In this document: positions 3,926 through 57,138 of the stretch, piece after piece
How positions within the stretch are numbered: the stretch's first letter is position 1
Layout: every line of letters begins with the position of its first letter
Virus record (IMG/VR): IMGVR_UViG_3300022745_000026
Location: 1 to 64,000 of that record
Source: a virus
Direction: 5' to 3' (one strand)
DNA length: 64,000 nt
Translations under genes and position numbers: made by a program
The notes under the pieces: model-generated
Databases searched by the model: none
Told to the model about the DNA's origin: nothing
Seen by the model: the letters and a program-made list of their open reading frames with translations, nothing else

Positions 3926-4078
3926 ATGAATACACACTACTTGACGACTGTACGTCGTTTGTTCAGTAACCCTTTAGCGCCGGATAGTACCAATCGGCAC
4001 AATCAGCGGGCGTGGATTAAATCTGTCAGGATGCTTGGAGACAAGTGGTTGCTGGCTAAACAAGTGGGGAAGTTATGA
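3926..4078 (+). CDS. small hypothetical phage protein (MNTHYLTTVRRLF...)
   Basis: GGAG RBS and ATGA overlap. Two further tiny coupled ORFs lie at 3658-3759 and 3756-3929. Confidence 0.65.
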   Translation: MNTHYLTTVRRLFSNPLAPDSTNRHNQRAWIKSVRMLGDKWLLAKQVGKL

Positions 4079-4452
4079 GCATCGAACTCGGTAAGACTTA
4101 CGTTACAGAACTTAACACTAAGTGGCGCGTTGCTAGTGTCACAGGGCTCAAAGGTACGGAGGTCATCGTTGTAAATGATGACCTAGGTAAAATCCGATGC
4201 CTGGACCTGCAAGGTCAAGGGCCGGGAGGTGTCCCCGTATTGGTTCAAGAGTTCGATATATGGTCAGAGGTGGCCATAGATACACCTATCTGGGTGAAGG
4301 ACCACCCAGCGGAGGAGTGGATACCTAGACACTTTGCAAAACGCTCTGGCGGGTATGTTATGGCTTGGTCTAACGGGACTACCAGCCACTCAGCCCCGAC
4401 AGCAGACCCAACCACCCGCTGGGAGATGGCCACACTGGTGAAGCCAACATGA
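4075..4452 (+). CDS. hypothetical protein
   Basis: 125-aa ORF, ATGA-coupled; C-terminal DTPIWVKD...WIPRHFA motif. Confidence 0.7.
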   Translation: MSIELGKTYVTELNTKWRVASVTGLKGTEVIVVNDDLGKIRCLDLQGQGPGGVPVLVQEFDIWSEVAIDTPIWVKDHPAEEWIPRHFAKRSGGYVMAWSNGTTSHSAPTADPTTRWEMATLVKPT

Positions 4453-4664
4453 ACAAGCACATTATCAACCTGCACCTAAACGTCCTCAATACTACCCTGA
4501 ACGGGCCTGACCCCGACAAAGACATTGACGACATGTACATCCCCAACCGCTACGTAGACAACCTTGTTAAAGCCTTGGTTCGAGACGCAGCGGACTTGTT
4601 AGACCAATACCCTAGGGTAGATGCTTCGGCAATCTTATTGAAATTCTACGGAATCAAGAAATGA
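4449..4664 (+). CDS. hypothetical protein
   Basis: 71-aa ORF, ATGA-coupled. Confidence 0.6.
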   Translation: MNKHIINLHLNVLNTTLNGPDPDKDIDDMYIPNRYVDNLVKALVRDAADLLDQYPRVDASAILLKFYGIKK

Positions 4665-4681
4665 AACTTATAAATAAGGTA

Positions 4682-4690
4682 TGCTACAAT
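4682..4690 (+). promoter_or_regulatory. extended -10 sigma70-type promoter (TGcTACAAT) for the HNH-AP2 cassette
   Basis: TG-N-TACAAT directly upstream of the structured leader. Confidence 0.6.
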
Positions 4691-4696
4691 GCACTG

Positions 4697-4803
4697 TGAG
4701 TGGTTTTGGGCTGCCGTGACTAGACGGCATAAGCGCAAAGCTTCTCGAAGCCCGCCGCCAGGAGTCCATGCTAGTTCCATGGGTTCTCTGGCGGTTTTTT
4801 ATT
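4697..4803 (+). ncRNA. putative structured leader RNA with complementary loops; second hairpin terminator-like
   Basis: Hairpin 1 is TGCCGT-GACTAG-ACGGCA (4712-4729) within a longer imperfect stem at 4698-4746. Hairpin 2 spans 4754-4795 with loop CTAGTTC and is followed by a T-run. Confidence 0.65.
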
Positions 4804-4814
4804 GGGATAAATCC

Positions 4815-5315
4815 ATGAAAAAACGAAAGATCAGGGTTGAGGGCGAAGTAGCCTACGTGCCACTAGCCGGCGGACAAGAGGCAATCATAGACGCAGAAGA
4901 TGCAGAATTAGTTGAAAAATATAACTGGTGCCTTACACGAGGCTACGTGGTGACGGGGCGATTAGCTAGTAGCGGCAAACAAAGGCTCTTATACCTGCAT
5001 CGGCTTGTAATGGGGGAGCCAGAGGGCAAGGCAGTAGATCATCGAAAAGGCAACAAACTTGATAATAGAAAAGTATTCCTTCGTGTAGCTACTACTTCAC
5101 AAAACAGTTGTAACCGAGGCCCACAGGCTAACAACACCTCCGGCCACAAAGGCGTCTACTGGAATAAATCCTCAAGAAAATGGGTAGCACAAATTGTGTG
5201 TGACGGCAGGCACATTTACTTGGGTCAGTTTATAGCCCTTGAAGATGCAGCACAGGCTTACAAAGAAGCAGCACTTAAACACCACAAAGAATTTGCAAAC
5301 TTAGGAACATCATGA
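4815..5315 (+). CDS. HNH homing endonuclease with C-terminal AP2 DNA-binding domain
   Basis: LHRLVM...VDHRKGNKLDNRK...N HNH motif and the AP2-like segment SGHKGVYW...KWVAQI...YLGQF...AAQAY. Confidence 0.9.
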   Translation: MKKRKIRVEGEVAYVPLAGGQEAIIDAEDAELVEKYNWCLTRGYVVTGRLASSGKQRLLYLHRLVMGEPEGKAVDHRKGNKLDNRKVFLRVATTSQNSCNRGPQANNTSGHKGVYWNKSSRKWVAQIVCDGRHIYLGQFIALEDAAQAYKEAALKHHKEFANLGTS

Positions 5316-5774
5316 AACTGACCAAATACGACAAAGACACCATGTTGAGCGCAATTAAGCGCGACCTACCTGAAATTGACGACAGAGAGGCTATCCAAGC
5401 GGCTCTTGAGAAGGCAATGAGCCCTCTATGCCGCAAGTTATACAAGTTGACTCCGGGTGCGGTGAGCATCAAGTACACAGCATCTTATGACTTCTTTCAA
5501 GGTAACTGCTCACACGAATACTACGTCGGGGATGCCGACTTCACGGTAGTGCTCGAACCCTTCAAGGCCAAGAAGCGAGCGAGGGATGAAACTCTCGACA
5601 AGGTGAGCGCCGCACTTGCGGCTTGTACAACACTAAAGCAGCTTGAAGAGCGTCTACCGGAGTTCGTCAAGTACGCCCCGGTAGAGCTTACCAAGAGCAC
5701 CAACGCCTTGGTTGTGCAGAGCCCCCGTAAACGAATTGAAGGCCCTCGGCTGGCCAGTAGGAGCAAAGAAATGA
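5312..5774 (+). CDS. Nmad5-like (nucleotide-modification-associated domain 5) protein with an apparent +1 frameshift near its 3' end
   Basis: MKLTK... start and CTTLKQLEERLPEFVKY motif. A family-like LGWP C-terminus lies in the +1 frame from 5727 and ends at TGA 5772-5774. Confidence 0.6.
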
Positions 5775-6067
5775 CAGCAGCAGAAAGACTTGACATTCAC
5801 CTGAACTCGGACAACTGGTTCCGAAAGACGGACTCAACGTACGGCCCATTCTTCTACTCAGGTGTTCGCCTACCCTTCAAGACGGATAACGGCATCACAA
5901 TCTCCATCCAGCAGAGTGACATTCACTGGTGCGACCACGGCTCTGCCGAGCTGTACAACTGCCCCTGGCATGAGTTGCTTGCCCCTTACGGGACAGACGG
6001 TGACCCCTGTGCCCATGTTCCACTGGAAGTGGTAGTGCAATACATTGAAGCGTTGGAGGCGGTATGA
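5771..6067 (+). CDS. hypothetical protein (MTAAERLDIH...), fused to the upstream gene in the ORF track
   Basis: AGGAG RBS before ATG 5771; ATGA overlap with the +1-frame stop of the upstream gene. Confidence 0.6.
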   Translation: MTAAERLDIHLNSDNWFRKTDSTYGPFFYSGVRLPFKTDNGITISIQQSDIHWCDHGSAELYNCPWHELLAPYGTDGDPCAHVPLEVVVQYIEALEAV

Positions 6068-6267
6068 ACGACCCAGCGTTCCCCCACCACGACTCCGGCC
6101 ACGGGTCGCCCTACTATCCGGGACTCACCATGCGAGACTACTTCGCCGCAGCCGCTCTGCAAGGCCTCTTGGCAAACGATGCCAAGAACGGAACTTGGGG
6201 CGAGTACTCAACAATGGCTTATAACTTGGCAGATCAGATGGTAAAAGAGAGGAACTTCCACCCATGA
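6064..6267 (+). CDS. small phage protein (PAFP...GLTMRDYFAAAALQGLLA type)
   Basis: Characteristic motif of a widespread small phage protein family. Confidence 0.8.
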   Translation: MNDPAFPHHDSGHGSPYYPGLTMRDYFAAAALQGLLANDAKNGTWGEYSTMAYNLADQMVKERNFHP

Positions 6268-6644
6268 AAACGCTACTACTCACTTCTTTGATTCTCCTCA
6301 CCGGCTGTGCGTCCAACGGGCCGAGCACTTTCGTCACAGCCAAGTATCCAATCCGGCCTGTGATTGACTACTCAGGTCCAGAAGAGGTCATCGCCAAGGA
6401 CCTCACAGCCTGTAATGACCTTTCCAAGCAAGTAGCTTCAACCGCTGACAATGCTCTCATGGGGGCCGCCGGCGGAGCCCTACTCGGCGGCTTATTCGCT
6501 GCGGCCATGTCTAGCAAAGAGCACACCCGAGAGCTTGCCCAGACAGGAGCCCTAACAGGCCTGTTAAAAGGCGGAAGTACAGATGACAGAAAAGTTATCG
6601 TGGCCAAGTGCATGGCCGGAAGAGGGTACCGTGTACTTGGTTAA
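6264..6644 (+). CDS. glycine-zipper lipoprotein
   Basis: Signal peptide with lipobox LTGC, GAAGGALLGG glycine zipper, and C-terminal CMAGRGY. Confidence 0.8.
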   Translation: MKTLLLTSLILLTGCASNGPSTFVTAKYPIRPVIDYSGPEEVIAKDLTACNDLSKQVASTADNALMGAAGGALLGGLFAAAMSSKEHTRELAQTGALTGLLKGGSTDDRKVIVAKCMAGRGYRVLG

Positions 6645-6707
6645 GCGTCTTTGGGATAAGTTCGGCGATTGGTGTGAGAAGTACCTAAAGGCTAATAAGG
6701 AGTTCCA

Positions 6708-6965
6708 ATGAGAAAGCCAAAATACGAAAAAGGCACACCAAATAAGGTGTACACAGATGGTGACAATGGCTATATTAGTCTAGAGGACGGTCCCGAGATT
6801 GCTATTGATAAGGACTGGCTCTGGTACTATAAGGACCACTACTGGCAGGGGCAACAAGTGGGGCCTGTCTACTTCGTCTATTACGTTGACCTATCGGGGC
6901 CACGACCAAGGGTTGTGGGTATAGACGACCATCTCGCAGCAGCACAAACTATGACAAGGCATTGA
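6708..6965 (+). CDS. hypothetical protein
   Basis: AAGGAG RBS; 85-aa ORF. Confidence 0.6.
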   Translation: MRKPKYEKGTPNKVYTDGDNGYISLEDGPEIAIDKDWLWYYKDHYWQGQQVGPVYFVYYVDLSGPRPRVVGIDDHLAAAQTMTRH

Positions 6966-6966
6966 T

Positions 6967-7158
6967 ATGAAATTTTCTGTTAAGAGAACCTCAGAGTGGA
7001 GAGGGTGTAGGCCCTGTCCGGAGGCTAAAGGCGAGACTGGAGAGTGGTACGTGGAGTTTTCCACTCTTGAAGAGTTAATGTTCTTTGTAGAGAAGCGGGG
7101 TGACGTAATTATCTCTAAGTACATGTCAATTGAAATTTACGACGGTTACAGGGAGTGA
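6967..7158 (+). CDS. small hypothetical protein (C-terminal IEIYDGYRE)
   Basis: 63-aa ORF in the gene string. Confidence 0.65.
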   Translation: MKFSVKRTSEWRGCRPCPEAKGETGEWYVEFSTLEELMFFVEKRGDVIISKYMSIEIYDGYRE

Positions 7159-8357: not shown

Positions 8358-8652
8358 GCCGCTCCCCACCATGCGAATCCCACAATTGCCCAACAAGAGG
8401 CTGGCCACCATGAAGCGTGGCCTTGCTCATATAGGCTTCTCAGCCGCCGCAGGCTTGGTGCTCAGCACCTTGCTCATCCTGCCTCTGCTTGATGCTTACG
8501 TGAGTCAAGTGCGAGTCGCCGCCACCGAGCAGGCGCTAGAGACCTTTGAGACCTCTTGGAAATCCCGCCTGCTCGATAATCAGTCACTCCTACGAACTGC
8601 CTGCACCACTTGGTGGTTTGGGTCCAACCATAAAGAACGGAATCTAAAATGA
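8347..8652 (+). CDS. hypothetical membrane-anchored protein (start may be 8371 or 8410)
   Basis: One TM segment; C-terminal CTTWWF. Confidence 0.55.
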   Translation: MKFKPLPTMRIPQLPNKRLATMKRGLAHIGFSAAAGLVLSTLLILPLLDAYVSQVRVAATEQALETFETSWKSRLLDNQSLLRTACTTWWFGSNHKERNLK

Positions 8653-9437
8653 ATATCAATGCTGAAATTATTGCCGACTCAATTAGTGAGGGTGGTGTAC
8701 GTCTTACAACTTTCTCTCTCACTTACCCCCGCGTCATCCATGGAGAACTAATGACCCATAGGGTTTTCTCACGTAATGCTATGAGTTCAAGGGCTATTCC
8801 AGTCTCTAAGCTAATTTCAGAAGTGTGGAACGACCCCTTCATTCCTATGGTCTGGGGCTCCAACAAGCCCGGAATGCAGGCCGGTGAAGAGGTCACCGGC
8901 TGGCGCTTGGCGCTTGCCAAGCTCACTTGGGTAGCAGCCTCCAAGGCCGCCTGCGTCTTCGCATGGGCCTTGTCCAAGTTGGGGCTGCACAAGCAGATCG
9001 GCAACCGAATCATGGAACCCTTCCAGTGGATGCGCACCGTACTCACCGCCACTGAGTGGGATAATTTTTTCGCTCTTCGAGACCACCCAGACGCCGAACC
9101 ACACTTCCAAGCCCTGGCTCGCCGCATGCGCTTCGAGATGGACATATCAACCCCCCGCGAATTGGTACTAGGCCAGTGGCACCTGCCCTACGTTGACTCA
9201 GTTTCAGGGATTGACTGCAAGATTTCTGCCGCCCGCTGTGCCCGAGTCTCCTACTTGACACACGAGGGCAAGGCACCGAGCGTTGAAGCTGACTTGGCGC
9301 TATATGAGCGCTTGGCCGGCGGCGAGCCTATCCATGCCTCACCCTTGGAACATCAAGCGACACCAGCCCTGAGCGCCACCACCCGCAGCGGTAACTTGAG
9401 GGGATGGGTTCAATTCCGTCAAGTGGTGCAAGCATGA
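8649..9437 (+). CDS. thyX: FAD-dependent thymidylate synthase (phage ThyX type)
   Basis: ELMTHRVFSRNAMSSRAIP, LHKQIGNR, SAARCARVSY and HASPLEHQA motifs. Confidence 0.9.
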   Translation: MNINAEIIADSISEGGVRLTTFSLTYPRVIHGELMTHRVFSRNAMSSRAIPVSKLISEVWNDPFIPMVWGSNKPGMQAGEEVTGWRLALAKLTWVAASKAACVFAWALSKLGLHKQIGNRIMEPFQWMRTVLTATEWDNFFALRDHPDAEPHFQALARRMRFEMDISTPRELVLGQWHLPYVDSVSGIDCKISAARCARVSYLTHEGKAPSVEADLALYERLAGGEPIHASPLEHQATPALSATTRSGNLRGWVQFRQVVQA

Positions 9438-54495: not shown

Positions 54496-54980
54496 GCTGT
54501 CACCGGGTCTTTGGCCAGGCCTGCAGCCACTGTGAATATTGGCGTGATACTCTGGGGAGGGGTGTAGCCGTTCAAGAGGGTAAGGGAGGCTTGTAGCCGT
54601 GCCCGAATGCTGACATACCCTGCATTCACCCCGTTGCGGACAGTCTCGAAGGGGTCTGCAAAGCGCTCAAATGAGGCCCGACCGTCTGTAACCTTTAGGG
54701 GGCTGAATAGGGGCAGGGAGGTGAGCAGTAACTTGCTGTAGGCATAGGCAGAAAACATGTTTGCTACTGCGAACACCTTGGTCTGCAGGGCTGTCCGGGA
54801 CATGACAGGGGTGGCCAAGATGGAGTCCAGGAGTGCCGGCAAGGTCGAGTCTATGTCCGACAGCTCAAGTTCCAGTTGGTCGGTGAAGACCTTTAGGTCA
54901 AGTGTAGCGTCTTCGAGTTCTTCGTCGGAAACTCCAAGGACCGCTCGAACTTCATCTGGGGTGGTGCGTGTTAGGGCCAT
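54492..54980 (-). CDS. putative head-tail adaptor
   Basis: TTPDEVRAVLGV..EEL.D start; synteny downstream of the capsid gene. Confidence 0.65.
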   Translation of the reverse strand: MALTRTTPDEVRAVLGVSDEELEDATLDLKVFTDQLELELSDIDSTLPALLDSILATPVMSRTALQTKVFAVANMFSAYAYSKLLLTSLPLFSPLKVTDGRASFERFADPFETVRNGVNAGYVSIRARLQASLTLLNGYTPPQSITPIFTVAAGLAKDPVTA

Positions 54981-55041
54981 GCGTCGATTATGGGCGGCTT
55001 TGTAGTTTTTGGGTGCTTAGGTGGTGGAAGATGGCAGTTTG

Positions 55042-55050
55042 TGATATACT
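55042..55050 (+). promoter_or_regulatory. extended -10 promoter (TGaTATACT) for the second HNH-AP2 cassette
   Basis: TG-N-TATACT immediately before the structured leader. Confidence 0.6.
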
Positions 55051-55161
55051 GGCTTCAACAGCTTCTGAATACCTGTAGGAAGGGTAGAATTCAAAAGCTG
55101 TTAAAGGCCTACCGCCTGTGCTTTCGTGTTCCTACCACGGAGGTGCAGGCGGTTTTCTTTT
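55051..55161 (+). ncRNA. putative structured leader RNA with perfectly complementary loops; second hairpin terminator-like
   Basis: Hairpin 1 (55051-55109) has loop GTAGGAA (55075-55081). Hairpin 2 (55111-55153, 18 bp including G-U pairs) has loop TTCCTAC (55129-55135) and is followed by TTTCTTTT. Confidence 0.7.
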
Positions 55162-55171
55162 GGAGATTGAG

Positions 55172-55666
55172 ATGAAGAAGAGACCGATTCGGATTGAAGG
55201 TGACGTGGCTTATGTGACCTTAGCTTGTGGGGCGGAAGCAATCATAGACGCAGAAGACGCTGAGCTGGTGGGTCAGTATAATTGGAGCCTATGCACTGGG
55301 TATGCAGCTACAAGCCTATACCCTGTCGGAGAGAAACGTAGAAGCATAAAACTGCATCGACTTGTTATGGGGGAACCTGAAGGTTTTGAAGTAGATCACA
55401 AGTACGGCATCAGGCTGGATAACAGAAAAGCACATTTGAGGCTGGCCACAAGATCAGATAATAACCATAATGCCAAGGTCCGTCGTGACAATACCTCCGG
55501 TAGGAAAGGCGTTTCGTGGCATAAAAAAGTTAAAAAGTGGTTCGCCCAAATAATGTATATGGGCAAACAAAAGCATTTAGGCTACTTTTCCGACCCTGAC
55601 GCTGCCTATGAGGCCTACTGCCAAGCAGCACTTAAATACCATGGCGAATTTGCCAGAACAGAATAA
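55172..55666 (+). CDS. HNH homing endonuclease with AP2 domain (paralog of 4815..5315), antisense to the late operon
   Basis: GGAG RBS; LHRLVM..VDHKYGIRLDNRK..N; SGRKGVSW...KWFAQI...LGYF...AY. Confidence 0.9.
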   Translation: MKKRPIRIEGDVAYVTLACGAEAIIDAEDAELVGQYNWSLCTGYAATSLYPVGEKRRSIKLHRLVMGEPEGFEVDHKYGIRLDNRKAHLRLATRSDNNHNAKVRRDNTSGRKGVSWHKKVKKWFAQIMYMGKQKHLGYFSDPDAAYEAYCQAALKYHGEFARTE

Positions 55667-55667
55667 T

Positions 55668-55692
55668 AAAATGGCCCTAAAAGGGCCATTTT
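55668..55692. terminator. bidirectional intrinsic terminator
   Basis: AAAATGGCCC-TAAAA-GGGCCATTTT between convergent genes. Confidence 0.8.
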
Positions 55693-55883
55693 TACTTTTT
55701 AGGCTTACTCTCGTCTGGGTCCACCCATCTCTGGATGACGGGCTGGCCTTTGACCCAGTCCGTCTCCTTGGCTTTAGTTGGTACCCGTGGTTCAAAGCGG
55801 CAACCGCTTTCTGGGTCTACAAACGGAAATCCAGCTGTGTTGATTAACCAGGTGCCTGTCTTGTCGTGGATGGTTTGATTCAT
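55692..55883 (-). CDS. small hypothetical protein downstream of the capsid gene
   Basis: 63-aa ORF; FPFVDP.SG.RF motif. Confidence 0.65.
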   Translation of the reverse strand: MNQTIHDKTGTWLINTAGFPFVDPESGCRFEPRVPTKAKETDWVKGQPVIQRWVDPDESKPKK

Positions 55884-55890
55884 AGGTATT

Positions 55891-55914
55891 CAGGGGAGAC
55901 TTTCGCCTCCCCTG
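55891..55914 (-). terminator. stem-loop (GAAA tetraloop) after the capsid gene
   Basis: Minus strand CAGGGGAGGC-GAAA-GTCTCCCCTG; no clear U-tract on this strand. Confidence 0.6.
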
Positions 55915-55923
55915 TTATTTTAA

Positions 55924-57138
55924 TTAGCTGATTGTCAGCACATCAAAAGGACGCAGATCGCTGTCGCCTAATGAGCGGAACACTTCCTCAGCCCAGTCAA
56001 GGCGCATAGCTGTACTGCGCTTCATGGCGTAAGCCTCAACAGCAGTGTAAGCTGCTGCAGTGTTGGTAACACGAGAGATAGCTACCGACGCATCCAAGGC
56101 ATACACCGTGTTAGCTGGCACTGGGCCACCTTCAGCAGCGGAGTCAACCAAGAAGATGCGAACGTCGTTGCCAAAGCCTACGTTAATCAAGCCTGCTTGT
56201 GGGTCTACACGAGTCAGAGTTGGGTCGTAGTTATTTGAGCCTGGACGACCTGTGCGGCCCTCAATTTTCAAATACGTGTCTAGGTCCATCACTAAATGAC
56301 TGATCTTTCGGTATTTACGGCTCCTGGCCAAAAACTTGACAAAGGCTTTGTGAGTCAGAACGCCACCTGTAGCTGCTGCATCCAGAGATGTAGAAGTCAC
56401 TGCAGCAACTGCACCTACGTTCAGGTCACCATCTCCGTTGTACAGAGCATTGATATAGCGGTAAACCCGCTCGTCACGCTCGATCTGCAGGTAGTGAGCT
56501 ACGGTACGAGTGACATAATCTATGTTCGTATTGCGCAGAGCAGCATCAGTCCACTCCATGCCGATATTCCAAGCGCCAATGCGACGGATACGGTCGCTGG
56601 TCTTGAAGAACAGCATCTTGGGTGGTTCAGCGCCTTGAGCAACGCGAGCTGCTTTAGAGTCCTCTGGGCCGCCAAGTGTTTTGTAGTCCACTACGGGCTG
56701 TTCAAAATGCTCCGTGTCAACACTGATGTTGTTGGCAATCATTTGCTCAAACACGCCAGAGTCGGTAGTGCGGTCTTTTTGCATTTCGGAAGTGATCTCA
56801 CCAATAACAGCGATGTTCACAAATGCGCGAGAAGCAGTGCCGAAGGGGCTTGCGTTTTGCTGGGTGTTGGCAGAGAAGCCGGAAGAGCCTGCAGAGCCGT
56901 CCAACAGAGCACCAATTTTGGTGGCACGGAAGCCGAATGGGTTATTGCTGCCAGGGCGAACCAGGCCGATGGACGCTTTGAACTGGTCAAAAGCAGTACC
57001 AACGGACAGGTCTGCATCAGCAAACTTACGGTTCATCTCAGCGATTGGGTCGCCGGACTTCACCATTGCCACTAATTCTTCAGCACTGGGTGCCCACTGT
57101 TGTGTTCCGCCCGAGCGGTCGATGTATGCAACTTGCAT
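55924..57138 (-). CDS. major capsid protein
   Basis: AAAGGA RBS before ATG 57138; ~404 aa; follows protease and decoration genes. Confidence 0.82.
   Translation of the reverse strand: MQVAYIDRSGGTQQWAPSAEELVAMVKSGDPIAEMNRKFADADLSVGTAFDQFKASIGLVRPGSNNPFGFRATKIGALLDGSAGSSGFSANTQQNASPFGTASRAFVNIAVIGEITSEMQKDRTTDSGVFEQMIANNISVDTEHFEQPVVDYKTLGGPEDSKAARVAQGAEPPKMLFFKTSDRIRRIGAWNIGMEWTDAALRNTNIDYVTRTVAHYLQIERDERVYRYINALYNGDGDLNVGAVAAVTSTSLDAAATGGVLTHKAFVKFLARSRKYRKISHLVMDLDTYLKIEGRTGRPGSNNYDPTLTRVDPQAGLINVGFGNDVRIFLVDSAAEGGPVPANTVYALDASVAISRVTNTAAAYTAVEAYAMKRSTAMRLDWAEEVFRSLGDSDLRPFDVLTIS

What the first reader, a model, noticed from the sequence alone, without database searches (positions are those of the whole stretch)
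4682..5315. Paralogous HNH-AP2 cassette (copy 1) with the same leader layout but a different complementary loop pair
Seen: TGcTACAAT promoter; hairpin 1 TGCCGT-[GACTAG]-ACGGCA inside a long imperfect stem (4698-4746); terminator-like hairpin 4754-4795 with loop CTAGTTC and a T-run. GACUAG pairs with CUAGUU (5 Watson-Crick pairs plus 1 G-U). The protein is clearly paralogous to 55172 (MKKRKIRVEGEVAYV..AIIDAEDAELV vs MKKRPIRIEGDVAYV..AIIDAEDAELV) and shares DNA blocks such as GCAATCATAGACGCAGAAGA. The two leaders share little primary sequence beyond CCGCC...GGCGGTTTT at the terminator base. This acts as a natural covariation control inside one genome.
Basis: partly seen in the sequence, partly recalled or inferred. 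Interest (0 to 1): 0.85.

Follow-up and report, generated by a model that had tools for sequence, protein, structure and literature searches.

The report
Kissing-loop terminator leader of mobile nuclease
In front of this phage's selfish DNA-cutting (HNH-AP2) gene lies a promoter and a folded RNA leader of about 105 bases, in which the tip of a first hairpin pairs with the tip of a transcription-stop hairpin; it belongs to an uncatalogued family of phage leaders that probably sets how much of the gene behind it is made.

Summary
Window 4661-5319 is a discrete 651-bp insertion (promoter + leader + HNH-AP2 gene) flanked by an 8-bp repeat. Two related phages have the empty site and one has a decayed remnant.

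The leader (about 4697-4800) is a bulged hairpin followed by a 16-bp intrinsic-terminator hairpin. Their loops, GACUAG and CUAGUUC, can form 6 pairs.

It is one member of a leader family. I found 18 distinct leaders with 12 different loop pairs. Eleven are perfect 7/7 Watson-Crick; copy 1 is the only imperfect one, being one base short. On a covariance-model alignment that did not encode the loop-loop helix, 100% of cells pair and 5 of 7 positions change on both sides. Of 337 unrelated terminators, 1 reaches copy 1's level.

- The two leaders are homologous, not merely similar in layout.
- The leader is not HNH-specific. It also precedes Bro-N, Rha/ANT, DUF7167 and unknown genes.

No Rfam family matches, and none of the 6 literature searches listed a paper on such a leader. 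This scan has already noted the design in other phages and at copy 2 of this window.

The mechanism is inferred: a promoter-proximal attenuator tuned by the kissing loop. No RNA data were available.

The parts
4661..4668 (+). Left copy of the 8-bp direct repeat ATGAAACT. It holds the TGA stop of the upstream 71-aa gene. It marks the left edge of the inserted cassette.
   Evidence: Relatives L414 and L415 have ...AAGAAATGAAATTGAC..., with the upstream stop overlapping the Nmad5-gene ATG and nothing in between.
4661..4690 (+). Sigma-70-type promoter: -35-like ATGAAA (4661-4666), 18-nt spacer, extended -10 TG-c-TACAAT (4682-4690). The start site is predicted near 4697.
   Evidence: 9 of 12 matches, TG present. 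In one search, 15 of 15 family members examined have a TAnnnT hexamer starting 12-18 nt before the lower stem. Relatives L492, L500 and L518 show a full TTGACA-17-TAAGAT there. The start site is not shown by any RNA data.
4697..4747 (+). Hairpin 1. Outer pairs UGAG/CUCG (4697-4700/4744-4747); lower stem GGUUUUGGGCU/AGCGCAAAGCU (4702-4712/4732-4742); 3-nt 3' bulge AUA (4729-4731); apical stem GCCGU/ACGGC (4713-4717/4724-4728).
   Evidence: minimum-free-energy fold; the lower stem is 91.5% paired with 6 of 11 pairs changed on both sides, and the apical stem has 3 of 5. G-U pairs occur on the + strand only.
4718..4723 (+). Loop 1 (GACUAG), the kissing partner of loop 2. It has 6 nt, where the other 17 leaders found have 7.
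4748..4753 (+). Single-stranded linker (AAGCCC) between hairpin 1 and the terminator. It is equivalent to the conserved AAGGCCUR of most members.
   Evidence: Alignment A6.
4754..4800 (+). Intrinsic-terminator hairpin: 5' arm 4754-4770, 3' arm 4778-4795, 16 pairs plus one bulged U, base CCGCC/GGCGG. The run TTTTTT follows at 4795-4800.
   Evidence: helix 91.5% paired, 11 of 16 pairs changed on both sides. Termination itself is not shown.
4771..4777 (+). Loop 2 (CUAGUUC). It starts with a YUNR-type CUAG and is complementary to loop 1.
4804..4807 (+). Shine-Dalgarno-like GGGA, 7 nt before the ATG.
   Evidence: Read. Other members have GGAG at this place.
4815..5315 (+). HNH-AP2 endonuclease gene (166 aa). 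Its TGA stop overlaps the ATG of the next gene.
   Evidence: HNH_3 2.7e-06, AP2 1.2e-08, both above the Pfam cutoffs. (57% identical to copy 2). (two copies of this protein family matched in the 72,691-bp record).
5312..5319 (+). Right copy of the 8-bp repeat ATGAAACT. It supplies the HNH stop codon and the start codon of the Nmad5-domain gene.

Best explanation
Window 4661-5319 is a mobile homing-endonuclease cassette that brings its own expression unit: a sigma-70-type promoter, a leader RNA of about 105 nt, and the HNH-AP2 gene.

The leader belongs to an uncatalogued family of phage 5' leaders. In this family a bulged first hairpin and a strong intrinsic-terminator hairpin carry mutually complementary apical loops, so they can form a loop-loop (kissing) helix.

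It most likely works in cis as a promoter-proximal attenuator. RNA polymerase starts at the base of hairpin 1, and most transcripts stop at the terminator about 100 nt later. The kissing helix sets the fraction that reads through into the gene.

My preferred version is that the kissing helix forms as soon as loop 2 emerges. It ties the top of the nascent terminator to hairpin 1 through a short linker of 7-9 nt. This strains or delays closure of the basal CCGCC/GGCGG pairs that termination needs, and so favours read-through. It is the ligand-free counterpart of what is proposed for the guanidine-IV riboswitch.

Copy 1 has the weakest loop pair found. On this model it would terminate more and express less than copy 2.

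Shown here: the fold, the covariation of all four helices, the family, the promoter signal, the insertion.
Inferred: the start site, that the hairpin terminates, and the direction of the kissing helix's effect.
For: Fold and accessible loops.

The kissing helix is real.
- There are 12 distinct loop pairs in 18 distinct leaders, 11 of them perfect 7/7 Watson-Crick.
- On alignment A6 (14 sequences, made by a model that did not contain the kissing pairs), helix 3 is 100% paired, all Watson-Crick, with 5 of 7 pairs changed on both sides.
- The whole structure is 92.0% paired, against 67.3% in shuffles (0 of 500 reach it) and 38-43% when partners are slid.
- Complementarity stops exactly at the loop borders (read).

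Background rate.
- Of 337 unrelated terminators, 1 has a Watson-Crick run of 5 or more.
- A strict descriptor scan of 3.23 Mb on both strands found only 3 unrelated loci.

It is RNA on the + strand. G-U pairs are seen in all three stems.

It is a leader and not a free-standing gene.
- 15 of 15 members examined have a -10-type hexamer 12-18 nt before the lower stem.
- 18 of 18 have 15-22 nt from the T-run to an ATG, with a GGAG-like site between in most.
- 18 of 18 keep 45-48 nt between the loops and 15-20 nt from loop 2 to the T-run.

The leader travels with the cassette. There are empty sites in L414 and L415, an 8-bp repeat in the window, and a decayed remnant in L416.

Selection acts on complementarity. 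L492, L500 and L518 share the promoter and lower stem (100% identical lower 5' arm). Their apical hairpin is 62-77% identical and their terminator 59-76%, with three different, still perfect, loop pairs.

There is a precedent for a kissing loop that opposes completion of a terminator stem through a shortened linker: passages of PMC11611296.
Against: - No RNA data. No RNA run was listed for this stretch, so the start site, the 3' end at the T-run and the read-through fraction are all untested.
- The sign of the kissing helix's effect is unknown. It could equally stabilise the terminator or the terminated RNA.
- Rough helix arithmetic (my own estimate, no modelling) puts a fully formed terminator plus the kissing helix in cis at the limit of what a 7-9 nt linker can span. 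That fits the strain model, but it also allows the loops to pair only between molecules.
- Copy 1 lies inside a long same-strand gene array, and its stop codon overlaps the next gene's start. An efficient terminator there would be polar on the downstream replication genes unless other promoters or polymerases serve them.
- The loop sequences turn over fast, two leaders in one genome always differed (2 of 2 genomes: this one and G005), and loop 2 begins with YUNR in 10 of 12 pairs. These are features typical of intermolecular antisense recognition.
- HNH-AP2 homologues without this leader exist: L003 at copy 2's own site, L006/L017 and L008/L009. The nuclease therefore does not need it.
Confidence: 0.55

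Rival explanations
1. A self-addressed antisense system. The terminated leader RNA of about 105 nt is the regulator. With its full terminator stem closed, its two loops cannot kiss in cis and stay free. They bind the matching loops of nascent leaders, or of leaders from co-infecting relatives, and change their termination. That gives dose-dependent feedback or an immunity-like specificity. Loop sequences diversify to keep copies orthogonal, as with the P1/P7 c4 RNA or plasmid copy-control RNAs.
For: - There are 12 different loop pairs on an otherwise conserved scaffold, and orthologous leaders with the same promoter and lower stem carry three different pairs.
- Two leaders in one genome differ in 2 of 2 genomes (window; G005). 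Cross duplexes are weak: +0.2/-0.9 in the window and -3.5/-2.1 in G005, against -4.5 to -8.9 for the cognate pairs.
- Loop 2 starts with YUNR in 10 of 12 pairs (read). [quoted passage not shown]
- Downstream genes include antirepressor-type proteins, Bro-N and Rha+ANT. In P1, Ant is controlled by the C4 antisense RNA (passage of PMC8201110).
Against: - The nascent RNA carries its own partner loop at a far higher local concentration than any RNA acting in trans.
- No further structured copies of either loop sequence occur elsewhere in the 72.7-kb genome beyond the roughly 9 chance occurrences expected per 7-mer.
- Compensatory drift under purely cis selection could also produce many loop pairs.
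- Only two genomes with two copies were seen.
Confidence: 0.27
2. A small RNA gene whose product is the point. The promoter-to-terminator unit makes a stable RNA that multimerises through its complementary loops, as phi29 pRNA does, or binds a protein. The gene behind it is simply the next gene.
For: - The unit has its own promoter and a strong terminator.
- Two loops that may not be able to pair within one molecule can pair between molecules.
- In L245 the same leader stands directly before the gene that in L063 follows an inserted Bro-N gene. The leader therefore persists independently of one particular gene.
Against: - The T-run is followed in 18 of 18 leaders by an ATG within 15-22 nt, and most have a ribosome-binding site between.
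- The unit moves together with the HNH gene as one insertion.
- The genes behind it are all small accessory genes, not random neighbours.
- The pRNA comparison is recalled and was not tested.
Confidence: 0.1
3. Not an RNA element. The arrangement is a DNA-level palindrome, such as a nuclease or recombination site, or the complementarity of copy 1's loops is chance.
For: Taken alone, copy 1 has only 5 Watson-Crick pairs plus 1 G-U. The element lies at the edge of a mobile cassette.
Against: - G-U pairs are tolerated on one strand only, and compensatory changes occur in 25 of 39 pairs.
- Complementarity is confined to the loops.
- 1 of 337 control terminators reaches copy 1's level.
- The same element stands before unrelated genes.
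Confidence: 0.03

Closest known systems
Guanidine-IV riboswitch (mepA motif)
   Same: Two hairpins in a 5' leader whose apical loops form a kissing loop. The second hairpin, extended downwards, is the intrinsic terminator. The kissing loop and the complete terminator stem compete through the linker between the hairpins, and the kissing loop favours read-through (passages of PMC11611296).
   Different: - In guanidine-IV the kissing loop needs guanidine. I recall that its loop bases are conserved; this comes from no call.
- Here the four central loop positions vary freely and pair perfectly over 7 bp, so no ligand pocket is apparent.
- The genes behind are phage accessory genes, not guanidine exporters.
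- The Rfam scan of both leaders at E up to 10 listed no riboswitch of that class. It is not a member.
Phage P1/P7 c4 antisense RNA (immI operon) and, from recall, phage P4 CI RNA
   Same: - An RNA regulator is encoded in the same transcript, upstream of the gene it controls.
- Short complementary boxes lie within one leader.
- It controls antirepressor-type genes (passage of PMC8201110).
- From recall: specificity differs between related phages through matched changes.
   Different: - From recall: c4 is processed out of the transcript and pairs with sites at a ribosome-binding site, leading to Rho-dependent polarity.
- Here the target is the loop of an intrinsic terminator, and the pairing is limited to a 7-bp loop-loop helix.
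- There is no Rfam C4 match.
Plasmid antisense-RNA attenuators and copy-control kissing complexes (pT181-type attenuators; ColE1 RNA I/RNA II)
   Same: - Fully complementary loops of about 7 nt.
- YUNR-type recognition loops (passage of PMC4485353).
- An orthogonal family arises by loop changes (abstract of PMC3753616 seen in the listing).
- The read-out is an intrinsic terminator.
   Different: Those systems use a separate antisense promoter on the opposite strand, and pairing usually spreads beyond the loops. Here both loops lie on one sense RNA and complementarity ends at the loop borders. Details of ColE1 and pT181 are recalled.
Promoter-proximal terminator units and structural attenuators (lambda PR'-6S RNA-tR', recalled; pLS20 zipper-type attenuator)
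   Same: A constitutive promoter is followed within about 100 nt by a terminator, with the gene behind it depending on read-through. In pLS20 an upstream stem-loop pairs with terminator sequence to give an antiterminator (abstract of PMC13401043).
   Different: In pLS20 the upstream sequence pairs with the terminator arm itself and extends a long stem. Here only the loop is contacted and both hairpins stay intact. No antiterminator protein site is evident.

Membership tests
HNH-AP2 free-standing homing endonuclease cassette | HNH nuclease motif together with an AP2 DNA-binding domain | tested here: met
   HNH_3 at 27.3 bits (cutoff 24.8) and AP2 at 35.6 bits (cutoff 33.3). D75, H76, N84, N97 and N100 are invariant among 7 homologues.
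HNH-AP2 free-standing homing endonuclease cassette | Presence/absence polymorphism at a precise site in related genomes | tested here: met
   empty site in L414 and L415, occupied site with an 8-bp repeat in the window, decayed C-terminal remnant in L416.
HNH-AP2 free-standing homing endonuclease cassette | Site-specific cleavage of the empty allele | not testable with these tools
   Needs an enzyme assay.
Kissing-loop terminator leader (family defined here, model R1) | Bulged hairpin 1, linker and terminator hairpin with the same spacing | tested here: met
   94.6 bits over model positions 1-114 (copy 1 was in the seed); 47 nt between the loops and 17 nt to the T-run, inside the family ranges of 45-48 and 15-20.
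Kissing-loop terminator leader (family defined here, model R1) | Seven-base loops that are perfectly complementary | tested here: inconclusive
   Copy 1 has a 6-base loop 1. It forms 6 of the 7 possible pairs: 5 Watson-Crick plus 1 G-U, or 6 Watson-Crick with a bulged U. The other 17 leaders found have 7/7.
Guanidine-IV riboswitch (mepA motif) | Match to the curated Rfam model, with its conserved loop nucleotides | tested here: not met
   no such match even at E up to 10. The loop cores vary freely.
Guanidine-IV riboswitch (mepA motif) | Association with guanidine-export or detoxification genes | tested here: not met
   Downstream genes are HNH-AP2, Bro-N, Rha+ANT, DUF7167 and unknowns.
C4 antisense RNA (Rfam; accession recalled as RF01695) | Match to the Rfam model | tested here: not met
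   no match.
Intrinsic (Rho-independent) terminator | G+C-rich hairpin directly followed by a U-run | tested here: met
   16 pairs plus one bulged U, base CCGCC/GGCGG, then UUUUUU. The simple scan did not list it; its stem has a bulge.
Intrinsic (Rho-independent) terminator | Release of transcripts at the U-run | not testable with these tools
   No RNA run was listed.

The most novel reading that the evidence does not exclude
The leader is a one-strand antisense system. The terminated leader RNA, with loops that cannot kiss in cis once the terminator stem is complete, acts in trans on nascent leaders carrying the same loop code. It competes with their cis kissing helix and so turns read-through down as the RNA accumulates. 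Each mobile cassette would then carry a private, dose-sensing throttle that needs no antisense promoter and no protein. The 4-base loop core would act as an address that diversifies to keep cassettes in one cell, or co-infecting phages, from cross-regulating.
Probability: 0.22. Interest if true: 0.85.

Novelty: new variant of a known kind. Interest (0 to 1): 0.7.

Why it matters
If the reading holds, phages have a compact, protein-free and ligand-free device that gives an accessory gene its own throttled expression wherever the gene lands. These genes are mainly nucleases and DNA-binding proteins, which I would expect to be harmful when over-made. In the window the device moves together with the HNH gene.

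The family offers a natural series of at least 12 matched 7-base loop codes on one scaffold. That is the kind of orthogonal set that synthetic biologists have had to engineer for RNA attenuators.

It also gives a direct way to test how a loop-loop contact on a terminator hairpin affects termination, a question so far studied mainly in the guanidine-IV riboswitch.

For genome annotation, the motif marks promoter-carrying accessory or mobile units in uncultivated phage genomes, and it is missing from Rfam.

Tried and rejected
Rfam. The whole window at gathering thresholds gave 0 matches. Each leader at E up to 10 gave only far-sub-threshold noise: microRNA models, Cgb105 at 17.6 bits against a cutoff of 163, ZTP at 11.9 against 39. 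Rejected as matches.

Phage GenBank collection. Megablast of 4000-7000 gave no match.

RNA evidence. No RNA holder was listed for 4400-5700.

Trans targets. I looked for further hairpin-presented copies of the four loop sequences in the whole 72,691-bp genome and found none beyond scattered chance 6- and 7-mers.

Closer relative of copy 1's leader with a perfect loop. An exact pattern on its terminator top gave 0 stretches. The nearest found is L461, with GUACUAG/CUAGUAC.

Bacterial genomes. Of 119 pattern hits folded in genome contigs, none has a loop-loop run above 5.

Other HNH-AP2 leaders. L004/L016 has a 6/6 complement between the hairpin-1 loop and a junction inside a branched terminator. 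L039-41 and L015/L045 have other long structured leaders. None is matched by model R1 at E up to 1. I left them as separate designs.

Outer stem. I considered an outer stem between the promoter/start region and the conserved GGCC of the linker, which would tell transcripts apart by origin. The partners are not consistently placed across members (read). Not pursued.

K-turn. I considered a K-turn at the 3-nt bulge. The tandem G-A signature is not there (read).

Alignment. MAFFT alignments A3 and A4 misplace the loops of some rows, so pair counts were made on the model-based alignment A6 instead. In A6, two rows (W2, L019) still lose the last loop-1 base to a gap.

Literature. No paper describing this leader was listed by the searches. 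Most subscription journals and all supplements are outside what I could see.
Full report
WHAT IS THERE

The window is 64 kb of a 72,691-bp virus record. It encodes DNA polymerase, primase, helicase, thymidylate synthase and head and tail proteins.

At 4815-5315 lies a 166-aa ORF with HNH_3 and AP2 domains. It is 57% identical over 161 aa, E = 2e-61, to a second copy at 55172-55666. A protein search of the record matched only these two places.

- an extended -10, TG-c-TACAAT, at 4682-4690, with a -35-like hexamer 18 nt before it;
- a long imperfect hairpin at 4697-4747 with loop GACUAG (4718-4723);
- a 16-pair hairpin at 4754-4795 with loop CUAGUUC (4771-4777);
- then TTTTTT, a GGGA, and the ATG at 4815.

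RNAfold returns this two-hairpin fold with z = -3.9. Copy 2 gives z = -5.8. In three sequence contexts every base of both loops of copy 1 has an unpaired probability of about 1.0 in the nested ensemble.

IS THE LOOP COMPLEMENTARITY MORE THAN CHANCE?

For copy 1 alone the signal is moderate. It has 5 Watson-Crick pairs plus 1 G-U, or 6 Watson-Crick pairs with one bulged U.

As a control I used terminators fetched by three sequence patterns. Each was folded with 125 nt of upstream sequence. I then took the longest complementary run between the terminator loop and any upstream hairpin loop. Of the 355 folded, 18 belonged to the family. Among the other 337, 1 has a Watson-Crick run of 5 or more and 1 has a run of 6 or more with G-U allowed.

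The strong evidence comes from relatives.
- Leaders before HNH-AP2 homologues show the same layout with different, perfectly complementary 7-base loops: GUAGGAA/UUCCUAC (copy 2, L005, L019), GAACAAG/CUUGUUC (L018) and GUCGCAA/UUGCGAC (L021).
- Pattern scans added GUACCAG, GAUCAAG, GAAUCAG, GGACAAG, GUACGAG, GUGCAAG, GAGUCAG and GUACUAG, each with its exact complement in the terminator loop.
- In all there are 18 distinct leaders and 12 distinct loop pairs. Eleven are perfect 7/7.
- Complementarity ends at the loop borders. The flanking stem bases are not complementary between the two hairpins (read), which argues against a DNA inverted duplication.
- A strict descriptor (two stems plus 7/7 loops) run over 3.23 Mb of fetched DNA on both strands found the family and only three unrelated loci.

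FORMAL COVARIATION

I built covariance model R1 from 14 leaders, using only the three nested helices. I then realigned the sequences to it to give A6, so the alignment cannot lean towards the loop-loop helix. On A6:
- the loop-loop helix is 100% paired, with Watson-Crick pairs only, and 5 of 7 pairs change on both sides;
- the terminator has 11 of 16 such pairs, the lower stem 6 of 11, and the apical stem 3 of 5;
- the whole structure is 92.0% paired, against 67.3% in shuffles (0 of 500 reach it) and 38-43% when partners are slid.

G-U pairs occur in all three stems, so the structure belongs to the + strand RNA.

Loop 1 follows G-N4-A-R and loop 2 follows Y-U-N4-C. Loop 2 begins with YUNR in 10 of 12 pairs. 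[quoted passage not shown]

COPY 1 WITHIN THE FAMILY

R1 finds exactly two places in the window, 4695-4807 and 55054-55165. Both were in the seed.

The two leaders are homologous. Both have an 11-position lower stem, a 3-nt bulge on the 3' side, a 5-bp apical stem, 47 nt between the loops and 17 nt from loop 2 to the T-run.

Copy 1 is the only member found with a 6-base loop 1. The perfect complement of its loop 2 would be GAACUAG, and it has GACUAG. Its loop duplex is the weakest, at -4.5 kcal/mol against -6.5 to -9.1 for the others.

Its nearest relative, L461, has the same lower 3' arm apart from the last base, and the perfect pair GUACUAG/CUAGUAC.

The two loop pairs of the window do not cross-pair (+0.2 and -0.9 kcal/mol).

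THE UNIT IS MOBILE

I tested it. Two related phages (L414, L415) have the upstream 71-aa gene's stop overlapping the ATG of the Nmad5-domain gene, with nothing between.

In the window the 8-bp sequence occurs at 4661-4668 and at 5312-5319. It brackets the promoter, the leader and the HNH gene. The right copy supplies the HNH stop codon and the next gene's start codon.

A third relative (L416) keeps only a C-terminal remnant of such a gene at the same junction. Empty, occupied and decayed sites together are the usual life cycle of a homing endonuclease gene. The leader belongs to the inserted unit.

THE LEADER IS NOT HNH-SPECIFIC

The same leader precedes:
- Bro-N genes (L063, L289);
- Rha+ANT antirepressor-type genes (L176, L203 and their identical copies);
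- a DUF7167 protein (L283);
- proteins without Pfam matches (L492, L291).

In L245 it stands directly before the gene that in L063 follows the Bro-N gene.

Conversely, some HNH-AP2 homologues lack it: L003 at copy 2's own site, L006/L017 and L008/L009. Others have different structured leaders that R1 does not match: L004/L016, L039-41 and L015/L045.

All 15 members examined have a -10-type hexamer 12-18 nt before the lower stem. L492, L500 and L518 show a full TTGACA-17-TAAGAT.

HOW IT PROBABLY WORKS

The constant order is promoter, hairpin 1, terminator, ribosome-binding site, ATG. The geometry is tightly kept: 45-48 nt between the loops, 15-20 nt to the T-run, and 15-22 nt from there to the ATG, in 18 of 18 leaders. 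This points to a cis-acting, promoter-proximal attenuator.

What the kissing helix does is inferred. The nearest documented design is the guanidine-IV riboswitch. There, a kissing loop between the loops of P1 and P2 hinders completion of the terminator stem (P2 extended). The two compete because a longer P2 shortens the linker (passages of PMC11611296).

My own helix arithmetic, with no modelling, runs as follows. Terminator (17 bp), kissing helix (7 bp) and apical stem (5 bp) stacked end to end span about 80 Å. The lower stem of hairpin 1, about 14 bp, folds back at the conserved 3-nt bulge. A gap of 45-50 Å is then left for a linker of 7-9 nt, which is at its limit.

I therefore favour a model in which the kissing helix strains the basal CCGCC/GGCGG pairs and lets a fixed fraction of polymerases through. 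Copy 1 would be the leakiest lock, or on the opposite sign the tightest. The sign is open.

THE MAIN RIVAL

Several features are those of intermolecular antisense recognition:
- the loops turn over fast on a conserved scaffold; L492, L500 and L518 have a 100% identical lower 5' arm, an apical hairpin 62-77% identical and a terminator 59-76% identical, with three loop codes;
- the codes differ in both genomes that carry two copies;
- loop 2 has the YUNR start.

Examples of such recognition are the C4 RNA that controls P1 Ant (passage of PMC8201110) and plasmid attenuators.

A terminated leader whose loops cannot meet in cis could act on nascent leaders in trans and give feedback. Against this, the cis partner is always nearer, and I found no other presented copies of the loops in the genome.

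I give this 0.27 as a rival, and 0.22 to its bolder, fully specified form stated as the novel case.

WHAT IS KNOWN

No Rfam family matches. Six literature searches listed no paper on such a leader. I saw listings and abstracts, passages of three papers, and the outline and abstract of one. Supplements were closed.

This scan has itself noted kissing-loop terminator leaders before, in other phages and at copy 2 of this window. Those notes gave me two leads, the guanidine-IV comparison and the 8-bp repeat, and I checked both.

I class it as a new variant of a known kind (structured leader attenuators with a kissing loop). It is not a member of any curated family.

LIMITS

- There are no RNA data, and the host is unknown.
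- Several family members come from the same few metagenome projects and may be close relatives. Identical leaders were counted once.

Noticed in passing
L418:5660-5790, minus strand (genome about 68,660-68,790, beyond the window's end): A third leader of different design follows a TAGAAT. The loop of a small hairpin (GUGAAAA) is complementary to UUUUCAC, and a linker CUGUGGC is complementary to GCCACAG. Both targets lie inside a long rod that ends at GGAG-N6-ATG. That ATG is followed by a stop after two codons, so the true start of the gene behind it is unclear.
   Followed up: partly
L004:2375-2500 (same in L016): An HNH-AP2 homologue has a variant leader. The hairpin-1 loop UUGGCC is complementary (6/6) to GGCCAA in the junction of a branched terminator. 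Model R1 does not match it.
   Followed up: partly
L003:2430-2510: At the same genomic site as copy 2, a relative carries an HNH-AP2 gene closer to copy 1 (64% identity). It has a TACAAT promoter and a short leader with no hairpins.
   Followed up: partly
L416:1734-2003: At copy 1's insertion site, only the C-terminal AP2 part of an HNH-AP2 gene remains. It is fused to an unrelated reading frame and has the same right junction (...GGAACATTATGAAG...).
   Followed up: partly
L063:7130-7810 compared with L245:1790-2210 (minus strand): Both carry the same leader with the same loop code. L063 has a Bro-N gene between the leader and the MSEKQTE gene. L245 has the leader directly before that gene.
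   Followed up: partly
L492:2400-3040, L500:780-1400, L518 (minus strand): Orthologous units share the promoter TTGACA-17-TAAGAT and the lower stem. They have three different loop codes, different terminator stems, and a downstream gene only 56-58% identical after its first 40 nt or so. The mosaic boundary lies inside the leader.
   Followed up: partly
window 5312-6067 and 8649-9437: The gene coupled to the HNH stop codon has an Nmad5 (nucleotide modification associated) domain. A thymidylate-synthase homologue lies 2.6 kb further on. The phage may modify its DNA.
   Followed up: no
window 54980-55924: Copy 2's cassette is on the + strand, between two minus-strand late genes (the major head protein gene and a 162-aa ORF). 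A bidirectional-looking hairpin follows at about 55672-55693. Late transcripts would carry the antisense of the leader.
   Followed up: no
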